DNA of 64,000 nt from a virus (taxonomy: Duplodnaviria > Caudoviricetes). Below, piece by piece: positions 1-11,559 of this stretch (position 1 is the first letter of the stretch; each line of letters starts with the position of its first letter). The stretch is taken from the IMG/VR virus record IMGVR_UViG_3300036798_000249, positions 3,165-67,164 of that record; one strand, given 5' to 3'. A model generated the notes under the pieces. The model was not told where the DNA came from, ran no database searches, and saw nothing but the letters and a program-made list of their open reading frames with translations. The position numbers and the translations under genes are program-made.

Positions 1-1136
1 GCTTCGATCCGATCCTTCTGTGCCGAGCGCAGCAGCGCCGCGGTGTCCAGCTCGCAATACTCGTCGGGCTCGCCCTTGAGATCGAACAGGACGCCGAAGG
101 CCTCTTCGATGTGATTCAGAGCAAAGCCGAGCCCGGTCGAAATCCAGAACTGCATCAGCGCTTCGGTCGAGCCCATGCCGCCCTGCGTGGGAAGGCCGAG
201 AATTTGCATCGGGATGCGGAACGCGAGCGCAATATGCTCCTCGGAAATTTTCAGGACCTCGGCGATCTGCGCGTCCTTGCCGCTGATCGACCACGGCTGA
301 ACCTTCAGCCCGTCGGTCAGGATCGGCACGCCGCCGGCCGCGCCGCCCTTGGTGTGCTCGTAGAAGCGATCGCGCAGAGCCTCGACCTGCTCCTTGCTCA
401 ATCGCAGATCGGTCTGCAGGACCGCGCTCGGCCGCGCCTGATTGAGATAGAACGCCTGTTGTTGCTGGCTGATCGCCTCGCTGACGCCGACGTCGTCGAG
501 CGCCGCCAGCAACGGCGTCTGGCCCCACAACGGAAACGGAAAGCGCCGGCTGCGATCAGCGTGCAGCCGAATATGCAGAACGTCGCGGCGCGGGATGACG
601 AATGGAACCAGATCGGGACGCCGCCGCTCGATGATCTGATTGCCGTGCAGCCGATAGAAAATCTCGCCGTTGGGGGCCAGCTGCGGCCGCGACAGATAAC
701 TGTCCATCAGATGGAGTTCATTGATCTCGTAGCGGCTGTTGCGCAGCGCGAGCGCGTAGGCGTTTCCTTCAAGATACAATTGCCGCGTCGCGTTGAGAAA
801 GAAGTCGGAGGGCGATTGATAGTCGTTCGGGTGCTGCAGAATGCGCGACAGCGCAGAAGTATCTACGCGATCGCGCCCGCCTTTGTCATTGAGCCGCCAG
901 TGGCTCCCGGGACACATGGCGATTGTTTGACTGTACGCCGAAATGCAGGCCTCGACGACAGCCGAGCTAGTCGACCACGGCTGGACGTTCTGACCGAGTT
1001 GCCACCAGTTCGTTGGGCTGCCGGGCGGCAGCCAGCCGCCGGACAGCGGCAGATAGTACGGCCCCGGTCGAACGGCGCCCTCGACCGCGCGCGCAACGGT
1101 GCGCAACGCGCCGGCAACGAGAGCGAGAGCGCCCAT
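1..1136 (-). CDS. Phage portal protein, HK97 type (3' end runs off the window; absent from the ORF track)
   Basis: Manual translation from ATG 1136: MGALALVAGALRTV...VVEACISAYSQTIAMCP...RILQHPNDYQSPSDFFLNATRQLYLEGNAYA..., still open at base 1 (...NHIEEAF...LDTAALLRSAQKDRIE). Confidence 0.85.
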   Translation of the reverse strand, partial: MGALALVAGALRTVARAVEGAVRPGPYYLPLSGGWLPPGSPTNWWQLGQNVQPWSTSSAVVEACISAYSQTIAMCPGSHWRLNDKGGRDRVDTSALSRILQHPNDYQSPSDFFLNATRQLYLEGNAYALALRNSRYEINELHLMDSYLSRPQLAPNGEIFYRLHGNQIIERRRPDLVPFVIPRRDVLHIRLHADRSRRFPFPLWGQTPLLAALDDVGVSEAISQQQQAFYLNQARPSAVLQTDLRLSKEQVEALRDRFYEHTKGGAAGGVPILTDGLKVQPWSISGKDAQIAEVLKISEEHIALAFRIPMQILGLPTQGGMGSTEALMQFWISTGLGFALNHIEEAFGVLFDLKGEPDEYCELDTAALLRSAQKDRIE

Positions 1137-1146
1137 TCACTTCGAC

Positions 1147-1455
1147 TCAACTCGACTGGGTTGACGACGGCGAATGTCGGGCCGGCGTTGCCGGCGTTGC
1201 CTGCCGTGTTTGGTACCCGGCGCCGCTAGCTGGCTTCTTGGGCTCCATTTGTTTGGTCGACGCCGCATGCGGATCGGGCTCGGAGCCGTCGGCTTCGTGT
1301 TCGTGGAAATGCCCGCCCAGCGCCGCGAGGTCGTTCTCTTCCTGCGTCGGCGTCGGCTTGCCCTTCGTCCGATCAACAAAATCCTGCCTGGATTTTTCGG
1401 TCGCCTTGCGGTCTTCGGCGAGTTGCTGCTTCGCAGCTTCGTTGTCGTCTGCCAT
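1147..1455 (-). CDS. Hypothetical protein (102 aa) between capsid and portal
   Basis: Fills the gap between capsid stop and portal start; GGAG upstream. Confidence 0.55.
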   Translation of the reverse strand: MADDNEAAKQQLAEDRKATEKSRQDFVDRTKGKPTPTQEENDLAALGGHFHEHEADGSEPDPHAASTKQMEPKKPASGAGYQTRQATPATPARHSPSSTQSS

Positions 1456-1523
1456 GTGTTGCTCCTGCGGTTGGGGTTGCGGTACGCTTGATGAGGCGGT
1501 CGTGCCGCCTCACCAATCAATCA

Positions 1524-3887
1524 TCAGCTCCAGGTCACGCCTTGCGTATAGGCGATCGTTCCGGCGCGTCTTTGAATCCAATTGAGAGGCATGACCATTC
1601 TTAGGGCGATGCTGTCCGTTTGGAATAGCGAACGCTGCGGAGAAGCAACAACACCTGGCGATCCTGGACCAACCAAATCAAGTGGCGCCGTATCTTCCAT
1701 ATGTAAGGTGGCCTGGTCTGAGAGCTCCAGACGTGGTGCTTCGCCACCAACAACAACAAAGTCGGCGGCGTCGACCAGGATCATTTCCTTCGACGTGACG
1801 GTCGCAGACTTGAGGATCGGAATGTTGTTGAGCGTTCCGCCCTTGATCTCGTCGCGGAAGGGGAAGATGCCGGTATTCGGCGCGCTCGCCAACGATGCGG
1901 CGAGAACGTCGCCCGGGTTCATCAACCAAACCGGCACGCGAATATTGCCGTAGGTGCCGGCCACCAGCGCTTGGATCAGAGACTTGATGTCACCAATCAA
2001 CGCCGGGAGTCCGCCACCGGCGGTCGGAGGCGTCACGGTGATGCCGTTCAACAATCCAGGCGGCCGGATGACGCTCGCCGGGTTGGCGTCGATCAGGACG
2101 GTGTCGATCGCTATCGACGTATCCATCTGCACGGCGTCGCGGATCAGTCCCTCGATCGCAGGAATCGAGTGGTCATTCATCTCCTTGGTCCAAACGCTGA
2201 TCACGGCTACCTTCTTGGGCGTCAGCGTCTGCGACGTAAACGCGCCCTGTCTCACAGGGATGGCCATTCCCTCACCAACAAACGAGCCCGCGATGGTTGG
2301 TGTCCGCGAGCGCGTCGGAATGATGATGCGACCCGCATTGCCGAAGTTGAGAGCGATACCGCGACTGGCCAGCCCGGGCAGAATGGCCGAGGGAAGTAAG
2401 AGCTGCATGAAGTCGGTATAAATCTGCTGAACCAGCTCTGCAGCCCAGCCCACCACAGTCGTCATGGCGGGCGCAGAGGCGGCGCGCAGGATGATCTCGC
2501 ACATTCCCTGCGTCACCTCGTCGTCGCCGTAGATTTTCCGTCGCAGCTCGTCCGCCGGCCGATTGTTTGTCTTGGCGAAATAACCGACCGTCGCGGCACG
2601 CACGACGTAGTCCAACGGATCAAGCTCCTTCTTCTTGGCGGTGCTGCGCGCCGGAGTGAACGACGTGCCGTCGCGAAGATCGGCGGCCGGGACCAGCGCG
2701 CGGCCGTTGCCGTTGTTGGCGCCGCCGCCGTTGTCGACGGTTTTGCCGAGCGACTTCTCCGAGTCGATCAACATAGCGCGCTGCCGGTCGAGCTGCCTGA
2801 TGGTCGCGTTGAGGTCGCTGCTCGTCTGGACGTCGGCGTCGGAGACGTTGGAGTCGTTGAGATGGTCGAGATGGGCCTGCAGGGCGTCGCGTCGTTCGAC
2901 GAGCTGCGCCTCCAGTTCAGTGATGCGTTGAGCAAGCGTCATGGCGCTGCCCCCTTTTGTCCGAGATGTTGCGGCGTGCTTGCCATTGAACCCGCGGCGC
3001 CCGGTCGCGCCTCTTTTGCCATGCTTGGCGAAGGCGAGATCGAGCATCTGCGGGGAGAGATTCAGCGATTTGGCGATCGCCAAAGCGTTGGGATTAGCCG
3101 GGACCGAGACCAATGATGTCTCGATCAGCTCCTGCTTGATGAAGCGATAGCCGGCCCATGGGTCTTTGCGGTCCATCGGCTCGCTTTCGAGATCGCGGAA
3201 GCCGACGCTGACGGCGCGCAGAATGCCGGCGTCGATCAGCTTGCGGATTTCATCGATGCGATCGGAGGTGCCTTTGGGCGCCAGCTGCAGCGTGCCGCGC
3301 AGCGACTTGTTTTCGACGCGTAGATTGGACCATTTTCCTATAGGAAATCCTGGATTGTGGTTGAACAGGGCAATGGGGTTCTTGGCGAACGCCTCGGTCT
3401 GCCAGCCGTCGGACGCGATCGTGTCGCCCATCCTGTCGACGCTCTCGTCCGACATGACGAAGTCCATGCCCTGGACGTCTTCGGCATGCGTCTTGCGCCG
3501 CAGCTTGCCCGCGCTGCGCGAGTCCCAGGCCATCTGGCAGAGATTCTCGGCGGTGTCATCGTCGACGTCGTTGTCGCTCAGCTCGTCGGTGCACCGATCC
3601 ATGAAATCATCTTGGCTCTCGTCATCATCGGGCTCGGGCACGTCGACGTCGTCATCGTCATCGCCATCACCATTGTCGCGACGCAGCCTGCCGCCTTTGC
3701 CTTTGGCTGGCGCCGGGTGCGCGTCGTTCCACATTTGCTGACATGCTTGCTCGGCCTGGTCACGCGGGCGCGCGCCGCCGCCGCTTTCGCCCATCGCGGC
3801 CGGCACGCAGCGGTCCATCCAATCCGATTGCGATTCGTCCTTGCCGGGACTGATAGGTCCGGTCGCCCTGGCCGATATGCGTGCCAT
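1524..3887 (-). CDS. Prohead protease-major capsid protein fusion (HK97 fold)
   Basis: Protease motifs NPIALFNHN, LRAVSVGF, ELIETSLVSVPANPNA; coiled-coil linker; capsid domain ending RSLFQTDSIALRMVMPLNW. Confidence 0.9.
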   Translation of the reverse strand: MARISARATGPISPGKDESQSDWMDRCVPAAMGESGGGARPRDQAEQACQQMWNDAHPAPAKGKGGRLRRDNGDGDDDDDVDVPEPDDDESQDDFMDRCTDELSDNDVDDDTAENLCQMAWDSRSAGKLRRKTHAEDVQGMDFVMSDESVDRMGDTIASDGWQTEAFAKNPIALFNHNPGFPIGKWSNLRVENKSLRGTLQLAPKGTSDRIDEIRKLIDAGILRAVSVGFRDLESEPMDRKDPWAGYRFIKQELIETSLVSVPANPNALAIAKSLNLSPQMLDLAFAKHGKRGATGRRGFNGKHAATSRTKGGSAMTLAQRITELEAQLVERRDALQAHLDHLNDSNVSDADVQTSSDLNATIRQLDRQRAMLIDSEKSLGKTVDNGGGANNGNGRALVPAADLRDGTSFTPARSTAKKKELDPLDYVVRAATVGYFAKTNNRPADELRRKIYGDDEVTQGMCEIILRAASAPAMTTVVGWAAELVQQIYTDFMQLLLPSAILPGLASRGIALNFGNAGRIIIPTRSRTPTIAGSFVGEGMAIPVRQGAFTSQTLTPKKVAVISVWTKEMNDHSIPAIEGLIRDAVQMDTSIAIDTVLIDANPASVIRPPGLLNGITVTPPTAGGGLPALIGDIKSLIQALVAGTYGNIRVPVWLMNPGDVLAASLASAPNTGIFPFRDEIKGGTLNNIPILKSATVTSKEMILVDAADFVVVGGEAPRLELSDQATLHMEDTAPLDLVGPGSPGVVASPQRSLFQTDSIALRMVMPLNWIQRRAGTIAYTQGVTWS

Positions 3888-3917
3888 GGGAAAGCCTCCG
3901 ACTTGTTGCTTGGATTG

Positions 3918-5156
3918 CTACGCCAGCTGCGCGAGCGCGCTGTCCCAATGCTCGGGCATGGTCTGCCGGTGCAGTCTGACATTTTGGTACCAGGGCGCGA
4001 GCCAGCGCCAGCTCGCCCAGTGGCTCAGCAGACCGTCGACGCGCGGATGACCGATGGCGCCGGCCAGGTGCAACGCCGCCGTGTCGACCGTGACGATCCG
4101 GTCCATCGCCAGCATTAGCGCGGCGCAATCGGCGAAGTCGCCGATCTCATGAACGTGGACGCCGTGCGCGATCGCCTCGATGCCGCCCTGCTTTTGCACG
4201 CTATGCAAATTATGCAAATTTGCATCGCCGAGCGCCGCAACCAGGCGACCGAGCGGAATGCTGCGCGGGTAGTCGCCGGGGCGTTGCATGCTGCTCGACC
4301 AGGCGAGGCCGATATGCGGGCCCGGACCAAGCTTGGCGCGCCAGGCCTCGATCGCTTCCGGCTCGACGCGCAGATAGGCTTCCGCGGCGTTGACGCTTCC
4401 CGGCGCGCCCGCCAGCATCTCCACCAGATACAGCATCGGGCAGACGAAATCCGCATCCTGCAACTGGTCGGTGACGGGCGCGATCGGCGCGGCGAGGCGG
4501 TGGAGCTCGGGCGGCAACTTCAGCGTGACGTCGGCGCCGATCGCCCTAAGCAGCGGGACATAACGCAGCGTCATGATCGTGTCGCCGAAGCCGTGCGCTT
4601 GCAGCAGCAACAATCGCTTGCCGGCCAGCTCCTCGCGGTCCCAAAGCTTCAGGCCGGCGGCCAGCGCTTCAGTCACGGCCGGGCGCGTGAGCGGCGGGCT
4701 TTGCTCGCAGGCGGTGAATTCCGCGAAACCTTCCTGCCACCGGCCAAGCGCCAGCAGGATCAGCGCGCGATTGAAGCGAGCAAACAACGTCGGCGCCAGC
4801 GCCAGCGCGGCCTCATATTCGGCCAACGCCGCCTCGTTGAGGTTCCGTTGCGCAAAATCCCGCGCGCAATCGAAATGCGTCAGATACTCGTCGATGCACT
4901 GCTCGGAGCGGTTGACCGCGACGAAGACGGAATGATCGAGATCGCCGAGCTTGACGATCGGCCGCCGGCTGACCGCCTTGCCGCCCTGCATCTGCAGGAC
5001 ATCGCCGTCGGGCAGCGCGGCCTTGTGGCCATCGCGGCCGCGCACGTCGAGCACCTCGCCCTTCGCCGTCAGGCCGCGCCAGCCGTGCTCGGTCTCCTCC
5101 AGCGCGATGATCGCGTCGTCGGCCGGCAGATCATCAACGAAGGTTGCTGGCTTCAT
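3918..5156 (-). CDS. TPR-containing glycosyltransferase (GT9/heptosyltransferase-like)
   Basis: TPR-like ARFNRALILLALGRWQEGF; HGFGDTIMTLRYVPLL, HIGLAW, DFADCAALMLAMDRIVTVDTAALHLAGAIG, SWRW; ATG 5156 overlaps the upstream stop (ATGA). Confidence 0.85.
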   Translation of the reverse strand: MKPATFVDDLPADDAIIALEETEHGWRGLTAKGEVLDVRGRDGHKAALPDGDVLQMQGGKAVSRRPIVKLGDLDHSVFVAVNRSEQCIDEYLTHFDCARDFAQRNLNEAALAEYEAALALAPTLFARFNRALILLALGRWQEGFAEFTACEQSPPLTRPAVTEALAAGLKLWDREELAGKRLLLLQAHGFGDTIMTLRYVPLLRAIGADVTLKLPPELHRLAAPIAPVTDQLQDADFVCPMLYLVEMLAGAPGSVNAAEAYLRVEPEAIEAWRAKLGPGPHIGLAWSSSMQRPGDYPRSIPLGRLVAALGDANLHNLHSVQKQGGIEAIAHGVHVHEIGDFADCAALMLAMDRIVTVDTAALHLAGAIGHPRVDGLLSHWASWRWLAPWYQNVRLHRQTMPEHWDSALAQLA

Positions 5157-6244
5157 TTCCAGGTTGGCGTCAGCCAGGCGACGGCACGCGGGTCGCGCAA
5201 CGCCCAAGAGACCGGCCAGCGCAGCTTGATCGCCACGCTATCGGTCTGAAATAGGCTGCGCGCAGGCGCGGCCGGCGCCCCGCCGTTGACGATCGCCGAC
5301 GGCGCGCTGTCCATGTGCAATTCGCCCGCGGTCGCGGTCTCGACCTCCGGGGCCGGATCGATCGCCGCGACCAGCGCCATCGGGGCGACGCAGATGAGAT
5401 CATTGCCGACGGCCGTGCTCGCGAGCACCGTGACGTTGCCGGGCTGCAGGACGAACCGCATGATCATTCCAGCGATTCGGCCCGGCGAGCCGATCAGGAC
5501 AAACGGCCCATTGCCGGCGATCGGCGCCACCGCATTGATGAGCGTGGCGCAATCCTCGAGGAAAGCCTCGAAGGCGTCGGTCGCCGCGCTCGGCGTCGTC
5601 GCCGAGACGCCATTGCGCAGGCCGGCCGGCGCGGCGGCAGTGGCCGCATTGCTGCCGAACAGCGCGACATCCAATGCCGCCGCCGTCGACCGCATCAGCA
5701 CGTCGCTGACCAGGGCTTCGGCATTCGAGGACGCGATCATTTCCCGGGTTAGGACGCCGATCGAGGCCAGTTTGTACGGCTGCAGAAGCGTCGCCGTCGC
5801 CGCGAACTGGCGCACCGGAATCGGCGCGCCCTCGGCGACGAAGCCCGCGTTGCCGGCGCCGGCGACGAAGCCAGGCGCGCTGATCTGACCGTTGCCGTCG
5901 AACATCAGGACCAACGACTGCAGCAGCAGCTGCGCGCCAGCGGCGGCCGGGCCCATCCCTGCAAGCGAATCGTCGACGAGCTTGTGCGCCAGCTCTTCCG
6001 CCCAGCCGACCACGGTCGTCATCGCGGGCGCGGAGGGGGCCTTCAGCAGCAGCAGCTGGGCGAGCGCCTTGTCGCTTGGCCATTGACGTTCGACGACCTC
6101 GGCCAGCGGGCGCCGCGTAGCGCTCGCCACCGTCAGCGCCGCAATGCGGCGCCAGAATAGATTGCCGCTCGACGAGAGCGGCGCCTCGCGGCTCTCGCGC
6201 AGCGCGGCCGCGCGGGCGCGCAACGGTTCGACCATCGCGTTCAT
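5153..6244 (-). CDS. Second capsid-fold protein (paralogue of the capsid domain of 1524..3887)
   Basis: SAPAMTTVVGWA shared with the main capsid; ARSLFQTDSVAIKLRWPVSW vs QRSLFQTDSIALRMVMPLNW; ATG 6244 has GGAG upstream. Confidence 0.8.
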   Translation of the reverse strand: MNAMVEPLRARAAALRESREAPLSSSGNLFWRRIAALTVASATRRPLAEVVERQWPSDKALAQLLLLKAPSAPAMTTVVGWAEELAHKLVDDSLAGMGPAAAGAQLLLQSLVLMFDGNGQISAPGFVAGAGNAGFVAEGAPIPVRQFAATATLLQPYKLASIGVLTREMIASSNAEALVSDVLMRSTAAALDVALFGSNAATAAAPAGLRNGVSATTPSAATDAFEAFLEDCATLINAVAPIAGNGPFVLIGSPGRIAGMIMRFVLQPGNVTVLASTAVGNDLICVAPMALVAAIDPAPEVETATAGELHMDSAPSAIVNGGAPAAPARSLFQTDSVAIKLRWPVSWALRDPRAVAWLTPTWK

Positions 6245-6255
6245 GGGATCGGCTC

Positions 6256-6612
6256 CTACGGCAACATCGGCGGCTCGATGGCGATGGCGAATTGGCGCGC
6301 CTCTTTCTGCGCGACAGGATTTGCCCGCGTACCCGAGCGCACCTTGAGGAACGCAACGGCTTTGAGAAAATCGCCGTACTGCGCAACAACAAGCGCCGAT
6401 CCGGGCACGACCACGACCATGATGTCGTCGCCGTTCCTGTCCACCAGATCGTTGAACCCGGTGCCGTCCGACGAAATGGCAAACGTCAGATTGGCCGGCG
6501 TCCATTGTGAGGGCATCGTGATGCGGACAATGCTGCCGCTGGTGCAATCGAGTGAATCCGACAGCGATTCGCCTGCCTGGATGTACGGGCCGTTGAGAAT
6601 TTCAAGCGCCAT
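6256..6612 (-). CDS. Hypothetical protein, probably virion-associated (118 aa)
   Basis: GGAGGG RBS; beta-strand-like composition; sits in the head operon. Confidence 0.6.
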   Translation of the reverse strand: MALEILNGPYIQAGESLSDSLDCTSGSIVRITMPSQWTPANLTFAISSDGTGFNDLVDRNGDDIMVVVVPGSALVVAQYGDFLKAVAFLKVRSGTRANPVAQKEARQFAIAIEPPMLP

Positions 6613-6632
6613 GTTTCCCTCCTATTCGGATG

Positions 6633-6668
6633 ATGCCCCGGCCATTTAAGCCGGGGGCATTTTTGTTT
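6633..6668 (+). terminator. Hairpin with T-tract, oriented antisense to the surrounding genes
   Basis: ATGCCCCGGC-cattta a-GCCGGGGGCAT followed by TTTTGTTT on + strand. Confidence 0.4.
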
Positions 6669-6674
6669 GATTAC

Positions 6675-7232
6675 TCACATGGGCTTTTCTTCATCCGGCG
6701 GCGGCTTGTCCGGGTCTGTCGGCGGATGCGGACGCTCTGGCGGACTGCCAGGGTAGAACCAACCAGGCGGAACAAAACCACCAGGCCACCAAACATGCGG
6801 CGGCTGAACTGGACCGCCACTGACATGAGGCGGCTGACCCTGCTCAGGTCGATCCGGCGGCGAGCCAGGATACATCGGCGGATATGGCGGCATTGGTCCA
6901 CCGCCGGGATACGTCGGCGGATAGATCGGTCCACCTCCGACATGGCCAGGGGGTGACGGCCACACTCCAGGCGGATAGTAAATTGGCGGTGTCGGAGCGC
7001 CGGGATAGATGGGTCCGCCGCCGGGATACATCGGCGGATAGATCGGACCACCGCCAGGGTGCCCCGGGTAGATCGGTCCACCGCCAACGTGTCCAGGCGG
7101 CGGCCATACTCCCGGCGGGTAGACTGGACCACCACCAACGCCGGGCGGCGGATAGTAGATCGGCGGCATGACTGCGGGCGGCGGCGCGCCGGGCTGAATC
7201 GGTTCAACGATAACAAGATAGGTTTGAGCCAT
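6675..7232 (-). CDS. Pro/Gly/Tyr-rich low-complexity repeat protein (185 aa)
   Basis: Repeated GGGP(I/V)YP and PPIYYPP..GVWP..PGHV units; AGGAGA RBS. Confidence 0.7.
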   Translation of the reverse strand: MAQTYLVIVEPIQPGAPPPAVMPPIYYPPPGVGGGPVYPPGVWPPPGHVGGGPIYPGHPGGGPIYPPMYPGGGPIYPGAPTPPIYYPPGVWPSPPGHVGGGPIYPPTYPGGGPMPPYPPMYPGSPPDRPEQGQPPHVSGGPVQPPHVWWPGGFVPPGWFYPGSPPERPHPPTDPDKPPPDEEKPM

Positions 7233-7293
7233 GTTTTAATTCTCCTTTATGATGTTGTTTGGCGATTGCAGCTTAGTGGACTTCTGCGACACT

Positions 7294-7452
7294 TTAATGC
7301 ACCACGCGCACGATGCCGCCTATTAGCTCGCTCGCGATCCAGAGCGCCAACGCGAGCCAGCCGAGATGCCATACGCCGATGGTTTGGATTCTGGTGGCGA
7401 TGCACGCGACCACGAACGCGAAGACCAGCAAGATCAGGCCGATGTTCTGCAT
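7294..7452 (-). CDS. 52-aa two-TM membrane protein, holin candidate (not in ORF track)
   Basis: MQNIGLILLVFAFVVACIATRIQTIGVWHLGWLALALWIASELIGGIVRVVH; near endolysin. Confidence 0.55.
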   Translation of the reverse strand: MQNIGLILLVFAFVVACIATRIQTIGVWHLGWLALALWIASELIGGIVRVVH

Positions 7453-7466
7453 GGCTCAGCTCCCCA

Positions 7467-7694
7467 TCATTTGGGTTTGTCTAATTGCTTCAGCTTTTTG
7501 TCCACTTCCGAGCAGCGTTCCTGCACGCCGATGAACTTGCTGTCGGTGGTGAATACGATGCAATGTACCGACGGAGGCATGTGATCGACAGAGCGCGGCG
7601 AACGAATCGACACCACTTCCTCGGGATTGATCTCTATGATCTGGCCGCCAGGGCCGGTGAGCAGGACCAGCGTCAGAGCAATAAGCTGGCTCAT
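7467..7694 (-). CDS. Hypothetical protein with hydrophobic N-terminus (75 aa)
   Basis: MSQLIALTLVLLTG...; tightly packed in the lysis cluster. Confidence 0.55.
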   Translation of the reverse strand: MSQLIALTLVLLTGPGGQIIEINPEEVVSIRSPRSVDHMPPSVHCIVFTTDSKFIGVQERCSEVDKKLKQLDKPK

Positions 7695-7695
7695 C

Positions 7696-7785
7696 CTAAT
7701 CGTTCATCCCATTCGAGATAACAACGAACAACAACAACAAGACGACAAAGCCGACGGCGACCCAAAGCCAGCCCGTGTCCCTCAT
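7696..7785 (-). CDS. 29-aa single-TM peptide
   Basis: MRDTGWLWVAVGFVVLLLLFVVISNGMND fills the gap after the endolysin. Confidence 0.4.
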   Translation of the reverse strand: MRDTGWLWVAVGFVVLLLLFVVISNGMND

Positions 7786-7807
7786 CACGGAACGAACTAC
7801 CAGTCCA

Positions 7808-8743
7808 TCATGCCGGAAACACCACCTCGATCTCATCGTCGGTCGTGATGCCGAGATCGGCCATCAGCGACGGCGACAGATCGGCGACTCGGTCCGTCGA
7901 ATGGTGCGGGCCCCAATCGGCCGGGAAGCATTTCAGCGTGACGCCGGTCTTCGACGCGGTAACCTGCGCCAGCTTTTTCAACAACATCTCGCGCGATGTC
8001 ACCTCATAATCCCAGCGGCAGGCGATGTAATGCACGAACGGGTTGAGCCGCCGCGCCAGACCGGTAGTGCCTTGCGGCTGGTACGGCAGGAACAGATGCG
8101 GCGCATCGTCAATGCTTTGGATGAACGCGAGCCCTTCATCGGGCGCGACGCCGGTGTCATCTGGGCCGCCGAAATGCGAGCATGACCCGGTAGCCATCAA
8201 TAACGCCTCGCTGTCAACCGGCGGCGATGTTGTCTCCCCTGCCAAGGTGTCGGCGATGCTGCCGCAAATCTCATCGAAGCACGAGCCGTAAATGTCGCAA
8301 TCGGCTTCGCTATCAACAAAGCAGACTTCCAGCAGCACGGCCGGTTGCGAGGTGTTGTTAAGAAAAAATAAATCGGTGCGCTTCTTGGCGCCACGGTCGA
8401 TAAAGCCACACCGAGCAATGGCCGCCGACAATTTGGCCGCCAGCGTCTGCTGCGTCACATACAGCACCTCGCAACCCATCGGGTGCTCGACCTGCTCATA
8501 GGCGTTAAAGTGAACGCTGACATCGAGATCGCGAGTCTTGCTGTTGTGAAAATCGACAATACGGTTGAGGTTCTCGTTCTGACTGGTCGAGACATCGTCG
8601 TGATAGGTGGTCGCCTTGATGCCGTACTGCGCCAGCTCGCTGGCGACATGGTCGACCACCCGTCGCGCCTCGTCGACCTCATCAATGATGCCGCTGGCGC
8701 CGCGTACCTTCAAGCCGTGCCCAGACGAGATGACGATGTTCAT
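7808..8743 (-). CDS. Endolysin: N-acetylmuramoyl-L-alanine amidase (Amidase_3) plus C-terminal RlpA/DPBB-like domain
   Basis: ISSGHG, DE, SVHFNA, AVLLEVCFVDS zinc-amidase motifs; C-terminal PADWGP...RVADLSP..M..LG. Confidence 0.9.
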   Translation of the reverse strand: MNIVISSGHGLKVRGASGIIDEVDEARRVVDHVASELAQYGIKATTYHDDVSTSQNENLNRIVDFHNSKTRDLDVSVHFNAYEQVEHPMGCEVLYVTQQTLAAKLSAAIARCGFIDRGAKKRTDLFFLNNTSQPAVLLEVCFVDSEADCDIYGSCFDEICGSIADTLAGETTSPPVDSEALLMATGSCSHFGGPDDTGVAPDEGLAFIQSIDDAPHLFLPYQPQGTTGLARRLNPFVHYIACRWDYEVTSREMLLKKLAQVTASKTGVTLKCFPADWGPHHSTDRVADLSPSLMADLGITTDDEIEVVFPA

Positions 8744-8827
8744 GGCGTGTCCTTGCAAGGGGCCGGCCGGACGACGCGTCAACCAAATCGTCGCCCGACC
8801 GTTGACGGGAAACGCTCCCGCCGGGTT

Positions 8828-10477
8828 TCAACCAATCAAACTTTCAATATCGATCGGGCCACTGATGCGGTCGCGCGCCCGAATGCCCATGAGCATTGCG
8901 AGCGCCACCGCGCCATCGATACGGAACCTGGCCTTGCTCTTGTCGATCTTTCGGAAGCCGGCGGCGTCCATCACCGCGACCGCGTTGGCGACGTTCCAAT
9001 TCAGGCACGGATTGTTTGGATGCTCGATCTTGTGCTCGTCGAGCGCCGCCATGAGCGCGTCGACCGCGGGCCCCATGTCTTTAAATCCTTGCCCCCAGGG
9101 AACGATGCGCAGGCCGTCGCCGCGAGGCGCGCGTCTCACCAGCCGTTGTAGATCATCAGGCGCGGCGCTTGTGTCCTCGTAGGCCTGAAAGCCGATGCGA
9201 TCGAACTCCCGCAGAAGATTCTGCATTCGCCATCGATCATACGCCAGGCCGCGTATCTGGTAGCGCGTCGAAAGCTCGGCGATGAAGCGCGCGAGCGATT
9301 CATGATCGATGGTCCGACCGGGCGTCGTCAGCAAATGCCCGGCGTCGACCCATTCCTCGTATCGCCGATTGCCGCTGCCGAAGTCCCGCGCCGAATGCTC
9401 GCCCAGCCATTCGACGGGCTTCCAAAAGAACGGCTGCACGCGGCAGGGATCGGCGACCGATCCAACAATCAAAGCCGTCAGGTCGTCGACGCTCGACAGA
9501 TCGAGCGCAGCGTAAACCTCTTCGCCGTCGATCAGCTCGGCGGGTCCTATGCATTCTTGCCACATGACGCGACTGATCAGCGTCGAGACGGGTGAGACTC
9601 GTTGATTGAGGAGCAAATTGCGTGTCTTAGGCTCTTCCGCCGGCATTCTGATGGCCTTGACAATGGCCCTGACCAAATCCTCGCGGTCGCGAAACGTGCC
9701 GAGCGCCGGGTTCGCCTTCGCCCATTGTGCCTCGTCCTCGAGCGCGCAGCCTTCGTCGGCGGCATAGAGATGGCAAACGATACTCGGGTCGATGCCCGAC
9801 AGCCCGTCGTCGATCAGCTTCGATAGAATATGCTCCGGGTCATTCGACTGCGTGCTGATCACTATGAACAGCGGCTCGTCGCGGGCGCCGAAACTGGTGT
9901 CGAGGACGTCGTACAGATCGCGGCTCTTCGCCTGCGCCAGCTCGTCGTAGATCACGACACTCGGCAAATATCCGTGTTTGGTTCCGGCCTCGGCCGACAC
10001 CGCGCGATAGATCGATCCGGTGCTGCGTCCGATCATGGTCTTGGTCGAGGAGATGACGTCGATTTTTCTGCGCAACTCGGCGTCTTGCTCGACGAGCTGC
10101 TTGGCGAATTTGAAAACGATGCCGGCCTGGTCGCGGTCGTTCGCCGCGCTATAGATTTCTCCGTTGGGTATCGCCTCGGGCCCGGCCAGGTGGGCGAGCC
10201 CGATGGCGGCAATTAGCGCGGTCTTCCCGTTCTTTCTCGCCACCGAGAGGATCGCACGCCGCACGATGCGGCGCAGACCACGGTGTGGCTCGTAGACGTC
10301 GCGGATGAATCGCTTTTCCCAAGGGTCGAGCTTGAACGGCTTGCCCTGACCGTGCCCGCTCGGGATGGTCAGATGCTGGATGAAATCGATGACTCTTTTT
10401 GCACGCTCGCGCCCGCGCGCGGACCGTTTGATAGACGGTCGGCGACGGTCGGTCGCCGACCCGTCAACAATCGACAC
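8828..10477 (-). CDS. terL: Terminase large subunit
   Basis: Walker A ARKNGKT, YDELA Walker B, ALDLSSVDDLTA nuclease, RIDGAVALAM. Confidence 0.95.
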   Translation of the reverse strand: MSIVDGSATDRRRPSIKRSARGRERAKRVIDFIQHLTIPSGHGQGKPFKLDPWEKRFIRDVYEPHRGLRRIVRRAILSVARKNGKTALIAAIGLAHLAGPEAIPNGEIYSAANDRDQAGIVFKFAKQLVEQDAELRRKIDVISSTKTMIGRSTGSIYRAVSAEAGTKHGYLPSVVIYDELAQAKSRDLYDVLDTSFGARDEPLFIVISTQSNDPEHILSKLIDDGLSGIDPSIVCHLYAADEGCALEDEAQWAKANPALGTFRDREDLVRAIVKAIRMPAEEPKTRNLLLNQRVSPVSTLISRVMWQECIGPAELIDGEEVYAALDLSSVDDLTALIVGSVADPCRVQPFFWKPVEWLGEHSARDFGSGNRRYEEWVDAGHLLTTPGRTIDHESLARFIAELSTRYQIRGLAYDRWRMQNLLREFDRIGFQAYEDTSAAPDDLQRLVRRAPRGDGLRIVPWGQGFKDMGPAVDALMAALDEHKIEHPNNPCLNWNVANAVAVMDAAGFRKIDKSKARFRIDGAVALAMLMGIRARDRISGPIDIESLIG

Positions 10478-10487
10478 GACTAATTTT

Positions 10488-11039
10488 CTAGCTTTGCCGG
10501 CGACGACGACGTGCCAACCACCCCATCAGACCAAGACCACCCGCAAACAACGGCAGGGCGGCGGGCAGCGGTGTCGCCGTCAGCTGGAAGTTGGACTGTC
10601 CCACCAGATCGTTGACGCCGGACGCCTGCAGTTCGAAGAAATAGTCCACCCCGGTCAGTAGAGCCACGGTGTCGGTGTTGTTGTTGGCGGCGAAGTTGCC
10701 GGCGACCACCGTGCCGTTGACCGTGTCCCTGGTGATCCTGAATATCTCCGCGGTGAAGCTCGGCAGATCGTTCAACGGGTTGTTGATCACGTCGACGTTG
10801 ACGAGCGTATTGTTCGATGGCGCGACGCTGAACTCGACCCAGTCATTGAGGAACGTCGGCGCGGTCGTGGACTGGAGCGTGCCGGCGATTTCCGACGGGC
10901 CAACCTGGCCGACGGTCCCCTGTGCCGGCGGTACACCGGTGAACGATAGGTCCGAAGCGACTAGATTGATCGTGGCGGCATCGGCGGCCGCGCCCATCAT
11001 CATGAGCACGGCAGCGACGACAGCGAGTAGGTTCTTCAT
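10488..11039 (-). CDS. Secreted protein with VPLPA-CTERM (PEP-CTERM-like) sorting signal
   Basis: Signal peptide MKNLLAVVAAVLMMMGAAADA; C-terminus TPLPAALPLFAGGLGLMGWLARRRRRQS. Confidence 0.85.
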   Translation of the reverse strand: MKNLLAVVAAVLMMMGAAADAATINLVASDLSFTGVPPAQGTVGQVGPSEIAGTLQSTTAPTFLNDWVEFSVAPSNNTLVNVDVINNPLNDLPSFTAEIFRITRDTVNGTVVAGNFAANNNTDTVALLTGVDYFFELQASGVNDLVGQSNFQLTATPLPAALPLFAGGLGLMGWLARRRRRQS

Positions 11040-11067
11040 TTGGTGTTCCTTTCGGGTTTGAGAGAAG

Positions 11068-11559
11068 TCATGCCAGCAGATCGCCGAATTTCGAGCGGGA
11101 GTTTTCGCCAAGAATGCCGGTGGCGATGCGCGCGCGGGCAACAGGCGTCATGCCGAATTCGCCGGCGAAGCGGAGCATTTCGGTGGCCGCTCGCCGGGCG
11201 GCGTGAACCAATGGATTGCTCCCGGCTTCGCCGTTGCGGCGTCTGATGACGAAGCCGTTCATCAGCGGGTCTTTGTCGACCATGCGCTGCAGCGCTTCCT
11301 CGGCGAGGCGCCAGCGCATGTAGCTCTGGCAGTAGGCGGCGAGCACCGCTGTATCGATGACGGTCAGCACGCCGAGCCGGTGGAGCTCGCGCGCGACGAT
11401 GCGCCATTCCGCTGCAGCGTAGCCCTGCAGATAGCCGGGCGGCTCGGGCACGTCGCTGGGGATCAGCGGCGCTAGCTCGTTTTGCGGCAGGGGGCGGCGC
11501 TGCGGGTTGCCCTGCAGCAAGCGCAGATTCGTCGGGGTGGGTCGACGTCCTCGAAGCAT
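11068..11559 (-). CDS. terS: Terminase small subunit, P27 family
   Basis: GRRPTPTNLRLLQGNP, PEPPGYL, LAAYCQSY, FGMTPVAR. Confidence 0.9.
   Translation of the reverse strand: MLRGRRPTPTNLRLLQGNPQRRPLPQNELAPLIPSDVPEPPGYLQGYAAAEWRIVARELHRLGVLTVIDTAVLAAYCQSYMRWRLAEEALQRMVDKDPLMNGFVIRRRNGEAGSNPLVHAARRAATEMLRFAGEFGMTPVARARIATGILGENSRSKFGDLLA

What the first reader, a model, noticed from the sequence alone, without database searches (positions are those of the whole stretch)
1524..6244. TPR-glycosyltransferase between two capsid genes: candidate capsid glycosylation system
Seen: the GT9-like gene starts on the stop of the capsid paralogue (ATGA) and ends 30 bp before the protease-capsid gene, so all three are co-translated late. 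Established: TPRs bind proteins, and some mycobacteriophages glycosylate capsid/tail proteins using GTs encoded among structural genes. Inference: this phage glycosylates a capsid protein (perhaps the paralogue), or alternatively host LPS. This is the best candidate for an undescribed system in the window.
Basis: partly seen in the sequence, partly recalled or inferred. Interest (0 to 1): 0.8.

Follow-up and report, generated by a model that had tools for sequence, protein, structure and literature searches.

The report
Phage head-operon capsid-paralogue glycosyltransferase cassette
A complete soil phage encodes, between a spare copy of its capsid gene and the main capsid gene, a sugar-transferring enzyme with a protein-gripping arm; well over 100 related phage contigs keep the same pairing, so the enzyme probably sugar-coats the phage head, but no glycan has been shown.

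Summary
On the minus strand lie a 363-aa HK97-fold capsid paralogue (6244-5153), a 412-aa TPR/GT9-like glycosyltransferase (5156-3918, ATGA overlap) and, 30 nt later behind a GGAGG, a 787-aa protease-capsid fusion (3887-1524).

For it:
- The paralogue->GT pairing holds in nearly every related IMG/VR contig with enough sequence. GT-based retrieval gave 80 loci. Paralogue-based retrieval gave 64 new loci, 57 with the GT.
- The GT never occurs without a paralogue. Two lineages keep the paralogue without the GT.
- The catalytic GT9 motifs (G-D192, D358-T-A-A-x-H-x-A-G-A) are at least 98% conserved in 96 orthologues. The model matches GT9 enzymes at Z 15-16.6.
- In 75 of 123 related loci a SAM methyltransferase abuts the GT. 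Some relatives add a Maf-type (PF01973) gene and a GDSL gene.

Not shown: any glycan, the acceptor or the donor. GT divergence tracks the main capsid at least as well as the paralogue. Homology to FlmG was not demonstrated.

This is a new variant of a known kind. Virion glycosylation is proven only in mycobacteriophages. The scan noted the same kind of cassette before on other DNA (e1-5361560, e1-5347545, e1-3408638).

The parts
5153..6244 (-). Free-standing capsid paralogue, 363 aa, HK97 fold, with no protease or scaffold part
   Evidence: 35% identity to the capsid part of the fusion. phrog_617 major head protein 1.4e-13. Model pLDDT 75 with best Foldseek hits to HK97-fold phage capsids and encapsulins. 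Orthologues are 47-78% identical in related contigs.
3918..5156 (-). TPR/GT9-like glycosyltransferase, 412 aa (the stop codon is 3920-3918)
   Evidence: ORF and ATGA overlap. Model pLDDT 88. More than 459 homologues and 160 viral-contig matches.
4896..5156 (-). GT residues 1-87: phage-specific N-terminal five-stranded beta domain (about residues 10-65) plus a linker, with a conserved G25-W26-R27
   Evidence: DSSP of the model. Absent from the cellular relatives, whose matches begin at about residue 95 or later. No usable Atlas look-alike. G25, W26 and R27 are at least 98% conserved.
4653..4895 (-). GT residues 88-168: short TPR arm of four helices, about two repeats
   Evidence: Helices 88-103, 107-120, 124-136 and 140-151. 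TPR_16 and TPR_9 hits. TPR structures match at Z 11-12.7 over residues 83-168. TPR proteins are the only sequence-level PDB hits.
3921..4637 (-). GT residues 174-412: compact GT-B catalytic domain of GT9 type
   Evidence: VIA-align: 3tov Z 16.6, WaaF Z 16.3, WaaC Z 15.6, TibC Z 14.9 over residues 174-412. Foldseek: 3tov 2.3e-7, WaaC, WaaF, OGT, SPY, TibC.
4581..4595 (-). H188-G-F-G-D192 motif after the first strand of the GT-B domain; proposed counterpart of WaaC S-S-M-G-D13
   Evidence: G189, G191 and D192 are at least 98% conserved in 96 orthologues. WaaC sequence. The equivalence is inferred from position and pattern.
4044..4085 (-). D358-T-A-A-L-H-L-A-G-A-I-G-H-P371, the GT9 hallmark motif
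   Evidence: The Pfam Glyco_transf_9 match covers residues 358-390. hhalign pairs it with WaaC V-S-V-D-T-G-L-S-H-L-T-A-A-L. D358, T359, A360, A361, H363, A365, G366 and A367 are at least 98% conserved.
5153..5156 (-). ATGA start/stop overlap between the paralogue and the GT (translational coupling)
   Evidence: Read directly from the sequence. The paralogue end lies within 40 nt of the GT start in most related loci.
3888..3917 (-). 30-nt spacer with GGAGG (3899-3895) before the fusion gene
   Evidence: Read directly from the sequence. In relatives this spacer is the insertion slot for a methyltransferase and other genes.
1524..3887 (-). Prohead protease - scaffold-like linker - major capsid protein fusion, 787 aa
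   Evidence: Peptidase_S78 at 145-271 and Phage_capsid at 492-714. phrog_617 1.9e-84. TIGR01543, TIGR01554 and NF045541 hits.
3..1136 (-). Portal gene (5' part; it continues outside the window), directly downstream of the capsid fusion
   Evidence: Phage_portal 1.1e-55. The full 480-aa ORF lies in L219. The fusion->portal order is conserved in relatives.

Best explanation
The gene encodes a soluble, late-expressed phage protein glycosyltransferase dedicated to the head. Shown: it sits in the head-morphogenesis operon of a complete 67-kb myovirus-type temperate phage, translationally coupled to a second HK97-fold capsid protein. It has a phage-specific beta domain, a short TPR arm and a compact GT9-type GT-B domain whose catalytic motifs are invariant. 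Inferred: the beta domain and TPR arm recognise a capsid-fold acceptor (the paralogue and/or the main capsid protein), as the TPR domain of FlmG binds flagellin. The GT-B domain then transfers a host-made nucleotide sugar onto Ser/Thr of that protein in the cytoplasm, before or during procapsid assembly, giving a glycan-decorated head. In most relatives an adjacent SAM methyltransferase would then methylate the sugar. This phage and its nearest relatives lack that gene, so they would leave it unmethylated. Likely pay-offs are particle stability, adhesion, or shielding of the head from host or environmental recognition.
For: Layout and coupling. The phage record is complete, with direct terminal repeats, and head and contractile-tail genes share one strand. 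In the 80 GT-retrieved viral loci, every locus with enough flanking sequence has a paralogue, usually less than 300 nt upstream. Of 64 new loci retrieved through the paralogue alone, 57 carry the GT just downstream, 2 have no room and 5 lack it. So the GT depends on the paralogue and not the reverse, as expected of an accessory modifying enzyme. Fold: GT9 enzymes at Z 15-16.6, including the protein heptosyltransferase TibC at Z 14.9; the TPR-plus-GT-B architecture is that of OGT and SPY. Catalytic motifs are at least 98% conserved over 96 orthologues whose mean pairwise identity is about 55%. The DTAALH motif aligns with the WaaC VSVDTG segment. A Methyltransf_24 gene abuts the GT in 75 of 123 related loci (median gap 15 nt); in L097 it moves to the other side of the paralogue and stays with the cassette; L127 and L133 add a PF01973 (Maf-type) gene and a GDSL gene. 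The precedent for TPR as acceptor binder and GT-B as donor binder is FlmG (PMC7591256). Virion glycosylation by phage-encoded GTs is known in mycobacteriophages (PMC11256854 citing Freeman 2023).
Against: There is no direct evidence of a glycan, an acceptor or a donor. Pfam GT9 and TPR hits are below gathering score and there is no sequence-level hit to a solved GT. GT pairwise divergence tracks the main capsid fusion (rho 0.69) more than the paralogue (0.55; partial 0.23), so there is no specific GT-paralogue co-evolution signal. No conserved paralogue-specific Ser/Thr patch stands out. The stretch between terminase and capsid is also a hot spot for non-structural genes such as an endolysin, toxin-domain proteins and an oxidoreductase, so position alone does not prove a structural role. 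Two lineages do without the GT. The cellular relatives have no informative gene context.
Confidence: 0.5

Rival explanations
1. The enzyme is active but glycosylates some other protein: another virion part such as the collagen-like fibre encoded after the portal, or a host protein late in infection. Its linkage to the paralogue would then reflect co-inheritance in a mobile head cassette and not an enzyme-substrate pair.
For: Intact catalytic motifs and a TPR arm. No specific GT-paralogue co-evolution signal. A collagen-like fibre gene lies just after the portal. The slot is rich in accessory genes.
Against: The GT is never found away from a capsid paralogue, although the order and the neighbours of the cassette vary (paralogue upstream, downstream or duplicated; methyltransferase on either side). 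Translational coupling to the paralogue.
Confidence: 0.2
2. The enzyme is a host-envelope modifier, acting like a GT9 LPS-core heptosyltransferase to alter LPS for lysogenic conversion or superinfection exclusion.
For: The closest solved folds are LPS heptosyltransferases WaaC and WaaF and the GT9 protein 3tov. The GT9 hallmark motif is present.
Against: The gene is embedded in and coupled to the late head operon, with no promoter-like site of its own. The TPR arm and extra beta domain are features of protein-directed GTs. The obligate paralogue linkage is unexplained by an LPS role. Conversion genes normally lie near attachment or immunity regions (established knowledge).
Confidence: 0.1
3. 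The protein is not an enzyme. It would be a TPR-containing assembly chaperone or minor head component that uses an ex-GT fold as a scaffold to place the paralogue, for example at vertices.
For: Sub-threshold Pfam GT9 score and a compact GT-B domain of about 240 aa. Tight coupling to a structural gene.
Against: Canonical catalytic and donor-binding positions are nearly invariant across 96 orthologues while the rest diverges to about 55% identity. Glycan-tailoring partner genes join the cassette. Phages keeping the paralogue can lose the GT, which is unlike an essential assembly factor.
Confidence: 0.07
4. The enzyme is a DNA glycosyltransferase that modifies phage DNA around packaging, as the GT-B enzymes of T4 do.
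For: GT-B fold; position in the packaging and head module.
Against: No thymidylate-synthase-type hydroxymethylase was found in the complete genome. The TET/JBP search had no positive control and is uninformative. TPR arms bind proteins. The fold is GT9-like, with no T4 AGT or BGT among the listed matches.
Confidence: 0.03

Closest known systems
GT9 ADP-heptose:LPS heptosyltransferases (E. coli WaaC and WaaF; Veillonella GT9 protein 3tov)
   Same: Same GT-B topology (Z 15.6-16.6 over residues 174-412). A G-D motif follows the first strand. The D-T-x-x-x-H-L-A-x-A motif aligns with the WaaC VSVDTG segment.
   Different: The Pfam score is below the family threshold. The catalytic domain is about 240 aa against about 320-350. 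An added TPR arm and beta domain. A phage head-operon context in place of an LPS core locus. Acceptor and donor unknown.
BAHT protein O-heptosyltransferases (TibC, AAH)
   Same: GT9-type fold acting on a protein acceptor; TibC matches at Z 14.9 and Foldseek 4.3e-4.
   Different: From my own knowledge, TibC is an iron-containing dodecamer without TPRs that modifies autotransporter adhesins. No sequence-level similarity was detected.
TPR-GT-B protein glycosyltransferases: FlmG (Caulobacter flagellin), OGT (GT41), SPY
   Same: The same division of labour is predicted: a TPR arm for the acceptor and a GT-B domain for the donor (PMC7591256 and bioRxiv 10.1101/2022.03.25.485807). OGT and SPY appear among the fold hits.
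   Different: Only about two TPRs, plus an extra beta domain. The GT-B domain is GT9-like, not GT41-like (rmsd 12-13 A for whole-chain OGT and SPY alignments). Homology to FlmG was not demonstrated: the strong Caulobacter homologues are not near flagellin genes, and a flagellin-linked TPR protein matches over its TPRs only.
Mycobacteriophage virion glycosylation (Che8, Rita; Freeman et al. 2023, PMID 37329881)
   Same: Phage-encoded glycosyltransferases that put glycans on major capsid proteins (as summarised in PMC11256854).
   Different: The hosts are Actinobacteria. In the related phage Maravista the GT genes lie near the 3' end of the genome, away from the head genes. No TPR-GT9 enzyme and no dedicated capsid paralogue are reported there. 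The primary paper could not be read here.
T4 gp23/gp24 major-capsid and vertex paralogue pair
   Same: Two HK97-fold paralogues in one head module, one of them a shorter duplicate (own knowledge; paralogy here).
   Different: No modifying enzyme is coupled to gp24. Whether the paralogue here forms vertices is untested.

Membership tests
Glycosyltransferase family 9 (Pfam PF01075 / CAZy GT9) | GT-B fold with GT9 topology | tested here: met
   Model pLDDT 88. 3tov Z 16.6, WaaF Z 16.3, WaaC Z 15.6 (rmsd 3.0-3.4 A, 217-227 residues aligned). Foldseek 2.3e-7.
Glycosyltransferase family 9 (Pfam PF01075 / CAZy GT9) | Sequence score above the curated Pfam gathering threshold | tested here: not met
   16.8 bits against a cut-off of 22, covering only residues 358-390. 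No NCBIfam hit. Some orthologue and relative clusters do carry PF01075.
Glycosyltransferase family 9 (Pfam PF01075 / CAZy GT9) | C-terminal D-(T/S)-G/A-x-x-H-L-A motif (the segment holding WaaC Asp261) | tested here: met
   hhalign pairs VSVDTAALHLAGAIGHP with WaaC VSVDTGLSHLTAALDRP (overall probability only 58%). The motif is at least 98% conserved.
Glycosyltransferase family 9 (Pfam PF01075 / CAZy GT9) | N-terminal G-D catalytic base after strand 1 (WaaC Asp13) | tested here: inconclusive
   HGFGD192 follows strand 181-185 and is invariant. WaaC has SSMGD13 after strand 1. The equivalence is by pattern, since no residue-level structural alignment was available.
Glycosyltransferase family 9 (Pfam PF01075 / CAZy GT9) | ADP-heptose as the donor | not testable with these tools
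   Needs biochemistry. The phage encodes no sugar-nucleotide genes of the families searched.
FlmG-type flagellin O-glycosyltransferases | N-terminal TPR acceptor-binding domain followed by a C-terminal GT-B domain | tested here: met
   TPR helices at 88-151 and GT-B at 174-412. The architecture is as described for FlmG.
FlmG-type flagellin O-glycosyltransferases | Detectable homology of the GT-B domain to FlmG, or linkage to flagellin or nonulosonic-acid genes | tested here: inconclusive
   No FlmG sequence could be fetched. In Caulobacter sp. S45 the strong homologues are on contigs without flagellin genes. A 542-aa TPR protein about 5 kb from a flagellin gene aligns over its TPRs only (hhalign probability 14%); its identity as FlmG is unverified. 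No flagellin context around 13 cellular relatives.
Phage virion glycosylation systems (mycobacteriophage type) | Phage-encoded GT together with glycan covalently attached to capsid or tail proteins | not testable with these tools
   The GT is present and linked to capsid genes. Glycan on virions needs MS or staining.
HK97-fold major capsid protein family (for the paralogue) | HK97 fold and homology to a bona fide major capsid protein | tested here: met
   35% identity to the fusion's capsid domain, phrog_617 and Foldseek hits to phage capsids and encapsulins at 4e-10 to 1e-6. No Pfam hit at E 0.01 or better.

The most novel reading that the evidence does not exclude
A widespread, uncultivated family of soil myoviruses (probable hosts Bradyrhizobium and other Xanthobacteraceae) carries a dedicated head-glycosylation cassette. 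It consists of a stripped-down capsid paralogue that serves as the glycan-bearing head subunit and a GT9-fold protein glycosyltransferase aimed at it by a novel beta domain and a TPR arm. A methyltransferase or Maf-type enzymes extend the cassette in many members. This would be the first virion glycosylation system in phages of Gram-negative bacteria and a new acceptor class for GT9-fold enzymes.
Probability: 0.35. Interest if true: 0.75.

Novelty: new variant of a known kind. Interest (0 to 1): 0.6.

Why it matters
Glycosylated phage particles have been proven only in mycobacteriophages, where the glycans shield the capsid from antibodies (PMC11256854). A second system, built from a GT9-fold enzyme with a TPR arm and paired with a dedicated capsid paralogue, would show that head glycosylation arose more than once and is common in soil phages of Proteobacteria. 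It would give the many uncharacterised TPR-GT9 proteins of Proteobacteria a first tractable substrate. It would also offer a compact two-gene module for putting sugars on HK97-type nanocages. Last, it bears on how phages persist, adhere and avoid recognition in soil. The cassette lies in two places in the genome of a named strain, Bradyrhizobium sp. CCGUVB1N3, so tests may be feasible there.

Tried and rejected
- A sequence search of PDB with the family profile found only TPR proteins.
- The neighbourhoods of 13 cellular TPR-GT relatives, and then of two Caulobacter loci, showed no flagellin, LPS or other recurrent context, so the cellular relatives give no functional lead.
- The FlmG link proposed in earlier scan notes could not be confirmed. 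A 586-aa TPR-GT protein on Caulobacter contig C10 is a true relative (hhalign 97%, E 1e-11), but it lies beside metabolic genes and a canonical GT9 gene, not flagellar genes.
- A Mantel-like comparison of pairwise identities gave no GT-paralogue co-evolution beyond shared ancestry.
- A scan for conserved Ser/Thr positions specific to the paralogue found only S172 and T359, with no patch or sequon.
- The GT's N-terminal domain has no similarity to the variable proteins that occupy the neighbouring slot in relatives, so a shared packaging-signal idea was dropped.
- The Atlas search gave nothing usable for the N-terminal domain.
- No cultured-phage relative was found, and only 1 of 301 host-family genomes holds an orthologue.
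- The TET/JBP search had no positive control.
- Freeman et al. 2023 is not held.
- No multimer prediction tool was available.
Full report
**What is there**

The window is bases 3165-67164 of a complete 67,164-bp virus record with direct terminal repeats. All morphogenesis genes lie on the minus strand. In order they are:
- small terminase (11559-11068)
- a PEP-CTERM-tailed protein
- large terminase (10477-8828)
- an Amidase_3 endolysin (8782-7808)
- a proline-rich protein (7232-6675)
- a 118-aa ORF (6612-6256)
- the capsid paralogue (6244-5153)
- the glycosyltransferase (5156-3918)
- the protease-capsid fusion (3887-1524)
- the portal (1136 onward)

Beyond the window edge come a collagen-like fibre protein and a head-tail adaptor. 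After the wrap-around come a tail sheath, a tape-measure protein and baseplate hub proteins, so this is a contractile-tailed phage.

- The ATGA overlap at 5156-5153, the 30-nt spacer and the GGAGG at 3899-3895 are exactly as described.
- No promoter-like site on the minus strand and no convincing intergenic terminator interrupts the three genes.
- The paralogue is 35% identical to residues 438-780 of the fusion. It models as an HK97 fold.
- It has no protease or scaffold segment.

**The enzyme**

Pfam alone is weak: TPR_16 at 1.4e-3 and Glyco_transf_9 at 4.5e-3, both below threshold. An AlphaFold model built on 25 orthologues is confident (pLDDT 88, pTM 0.87) and shows three parts:
- a five-stranded beta domain at about residues 10-65
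- four TPR helices at 88-151
- a compact GT-B domain at 174-412

The GT-B domain matches GT9 structures: 3tov at Z 16.6, WaaF at Z 16.3, WaaC at Z 15.6 and the protein heptosyltransferase TibC at Z 14.9. The whole chain also recalls the TPR-plus-GT-B enzymes OGT and SPY.

The motif VSVD358-T-A-A-L-H-L-A-G-A aligns with the WaaC segment VSVDTGLSHL that holds Asp261. H-G-F-G-D192 sits after the first strand, as S-S-M-G-D13 does in WaaC; I infer this equivalence from pattern. The catalytic roles of WaaC Asp13 and Asp261 come from my own knowledge of that enzyme.

Across 96 distinct orthologues, the following are at least 98% conserved: G189, G191, D192, R198, W286, R298, S319, Q321, D358, T359, A360, A361, H363, A365, G366, A367, S382-W385 and Y390. 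Overall pairwise identity is only about 55%. The active site is therefore not degenerate.

The complete phage carries no other GT1 or GT2 gene, no epimerase and no nucleotidyltransferase gene. The donor must come from the host.

- The GT family has more than 459 homologues, mostly from soil metagenomes. They include two copies in Bradyrhizobium sp. CCGUVB1N3 and a Xanthobacteraceae MAG.
- A scan of IMG/VR found 160 matching stretches. The best 80 are full-length orthologues at 45-70% identity.
- In these loci the order terminase - (variable) - paralogue - GT - (variable) - fusion - portal is nearly universal.
- Every locus with enough flanking sequence has a capsid paralogue, usually ending within 40 nt of the GT start. 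The GT-to-fusion distance, in contrast, varies from 8 nt to 7.6 kb.
- In the exceptions the paralogue is still present. It lies 1-3 kb upstream (L092, L095, L096, L106, L115, L136-L139) or downstream and duplicated (L141).
- Retrieval through the paralogue alone gave more than 560 matching stretches; these include main capsid genes that share the search motifs. Of the 64 new loci among the best 80, 57 have the GT just downstream, 2 have no room and 5 lack it.
- The 5 loci without a GT represent two lineages, L199 and L212-L215. Their paralogues are only 48% identical to each other.

So the GT never occurs without a paralogue, while the paralogue can exist without the GT. That asymmetry fits an accessory enzyme acting on or with the paralogue. 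It argues against an essential assembly factor. Both GT-less paralogues carry D223N at a position that is invariant in the 31 aligned paralogues from GT-bearing phages. This is anecdotal.

**The cassette grows in relatives**

- In 75 of 123 related loci with room, a roughly 200-aa SAM methyltransferase (Methyltransf_24, with a weak O-methyltransferase hit) follows the GT at a median gap of 15 nt.
- In L097 it sits before the paralogue instead, and so stays with the cassette.
- L127 and L133 add another methyltransferase and a PF01973 MptE-like gene. L127 also has a GDSL hydrolase gene. From my own knowledge, PF01973 is the domain of the Maf flagellin glycosyltransferases.
- This window and its closest relatives (L073-L079) have no methyltransferase.

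A GT joined by glycan-tailoring enzymes argues for real glycan synthesis. The lead to look for a methyltransferase came from earlier scan notes on other genomes, and I verified it here.

**Limits**

- Nothing shows a glycan.
- Pairwise divergence of the GT correlates with that of the main capsid fusion (rho 0.69) at least as well as with the paralogue (rho 0.55; partial 0.23 after removing the fusion). The acceptor could therefore equally be the main capsid protein, or the signal may be only shared ancestry.
- Conserved Ser/Thr positions are many in both capsid proteins, and no sequon stands out.
- The slot next to the GT also holds unrelated genes in relatives. These include large proteins with ADP-ribosyltransferase or ATLF-like C-terminal domains, an oxidoreductase and a GH25 lysozyme. 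Location in the head operon is therefore suggestive, not proof.

**Relatives outside phages**

The cellular relatives are 500-800-aa TPR-GT proteins of Alpha- and Betaproteobacteria and other phyla, often in tandem arrays.
- They lack the N-terminal beta domain, and they have longer TPR arrays.
- Their gene neighbourhoods are uninformative.

Homology to FlmG, which earlier notes named as the closest known, could not be shown.
- In Caulobacter sp. S45 the strong homologues lie on contigs without flagellin genes.
- A flagellin-linked TPR protein in that genome matches only in its TPRs.

FlmG remains the best functional analogy: its TPR domain binds the acceptor and its GT-B domain sets the donor (PMC7591256; bioRxiv 10.1101/2022.03.25.485807). 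I do not claim family membership.

**Rivals**

- LPS modification fits the fold. It does not fit the late, coupled position, the TPR arm or the paralogue linkage.
- A non-catalytic role conflicts with the invariant motifs and the partner enzymes.
- DNA glycosylation lacks a hydroxymethylase.
- Another protein target, such as the collagen-like fibre or a host protein, remains open.

**Novelty**

- Literature searches found virion glycosylation only for mycobacteriophages and giant viruses, and nothing on this cassette.
- No cultured phage carries it.
- Only 1 of 301 host-family reference genomes has an orthologue.
- The scan has met the same kind of cassette before on other DNA (e1-5361560, e1-5347545, e1-3408638).

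I class it as a new variant of a known kind. My confidence is 0.5 that a head protein is glycosylated and 0.35 for the fuller reading, in which the paralogue is the dedicated glycan-bearing subunit.

Noticed in passing
L091:6650-12759; L115:4306-7449; L078:4864-6654; L079:3863-6433; L088:9767-12004 (the slot between the GT and the capsid fusion in related phages): Relatives insert large variable genes here. Some carry C-terminal ADPrib_exo_Tox (8e-13) or ATLF-like (1e-8) domains or a pyridine-nucleotide oxidoreductase. Several share a short module of about 45-60 aa near the N-terminus. This looks like a polymorphic cargo or effector slot in the head operon. It is absent from this window.
   Followed up: partly
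window 3887-3500 (-), fusion residues about 17-125: The N-terminus of the protease-capsid fusion holds two copies of a Cys-containing motif (ESQ-x-D-[WF]-MDRC ... C-Q-[QM]-[MA]-W) separated by an acidic run. A free-standing 99-aa ORF with the same motif precedes the fusion in L115. Function unknown.
   Followed up: no
window 6256-6612 (-): The 118-aa ORF recurs in relatives at shifting places in the head module: before the small terminase, before the paralogue, or after the GT. It has no family match. It may be a small mobile head accessory or decoration gene.
   Followed up: partly
window 1-11559 (-) and L219: The head-module order is unusual. The portal gene lies downstream of the capsid gene, and an endolysin sits between the large terminase and the head genes. 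The fusion->portal order is conserved in relatives.
   Followed up: partly
L219:1654-2925 (-) (just outside the window, after the portal): A 423-aa collagen-like repeat protein (phrog tail fibre and collagen-like minor tail families) lies between the portal and the head-tail adaptor. It may be a head or neck fibre and an alternative glycosylation target.
   Followed up: no
window 6675-7232 (-): A 185-aa Pro/Gly/Tyr-rich repeat protein (G-G-G-P-I-Y-P units) with no family match. Among related loci it was found only in L076/L155.
   Followed up: no
L212:1485-2576; L199:80-1159: Two independent phage lineages keep the capsid paralogue but have no GT. Both carry D223N at a position that is invariant in the 31 aligned paralogues from GT-bearing phages, and L199 also changes A207 and G212 in the same loop.
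   Followed up: partly
L127:6978-9549 (also L133, L216, L217): Here the GT is followed by a methyltransferase, a PF01973 MptE-like (Maf-type) gene, a GDSL hydrolase gene and further unknown ORFs. This is an expanded glycan-tailoring cluster inside the head operon.
   Followed up: partly
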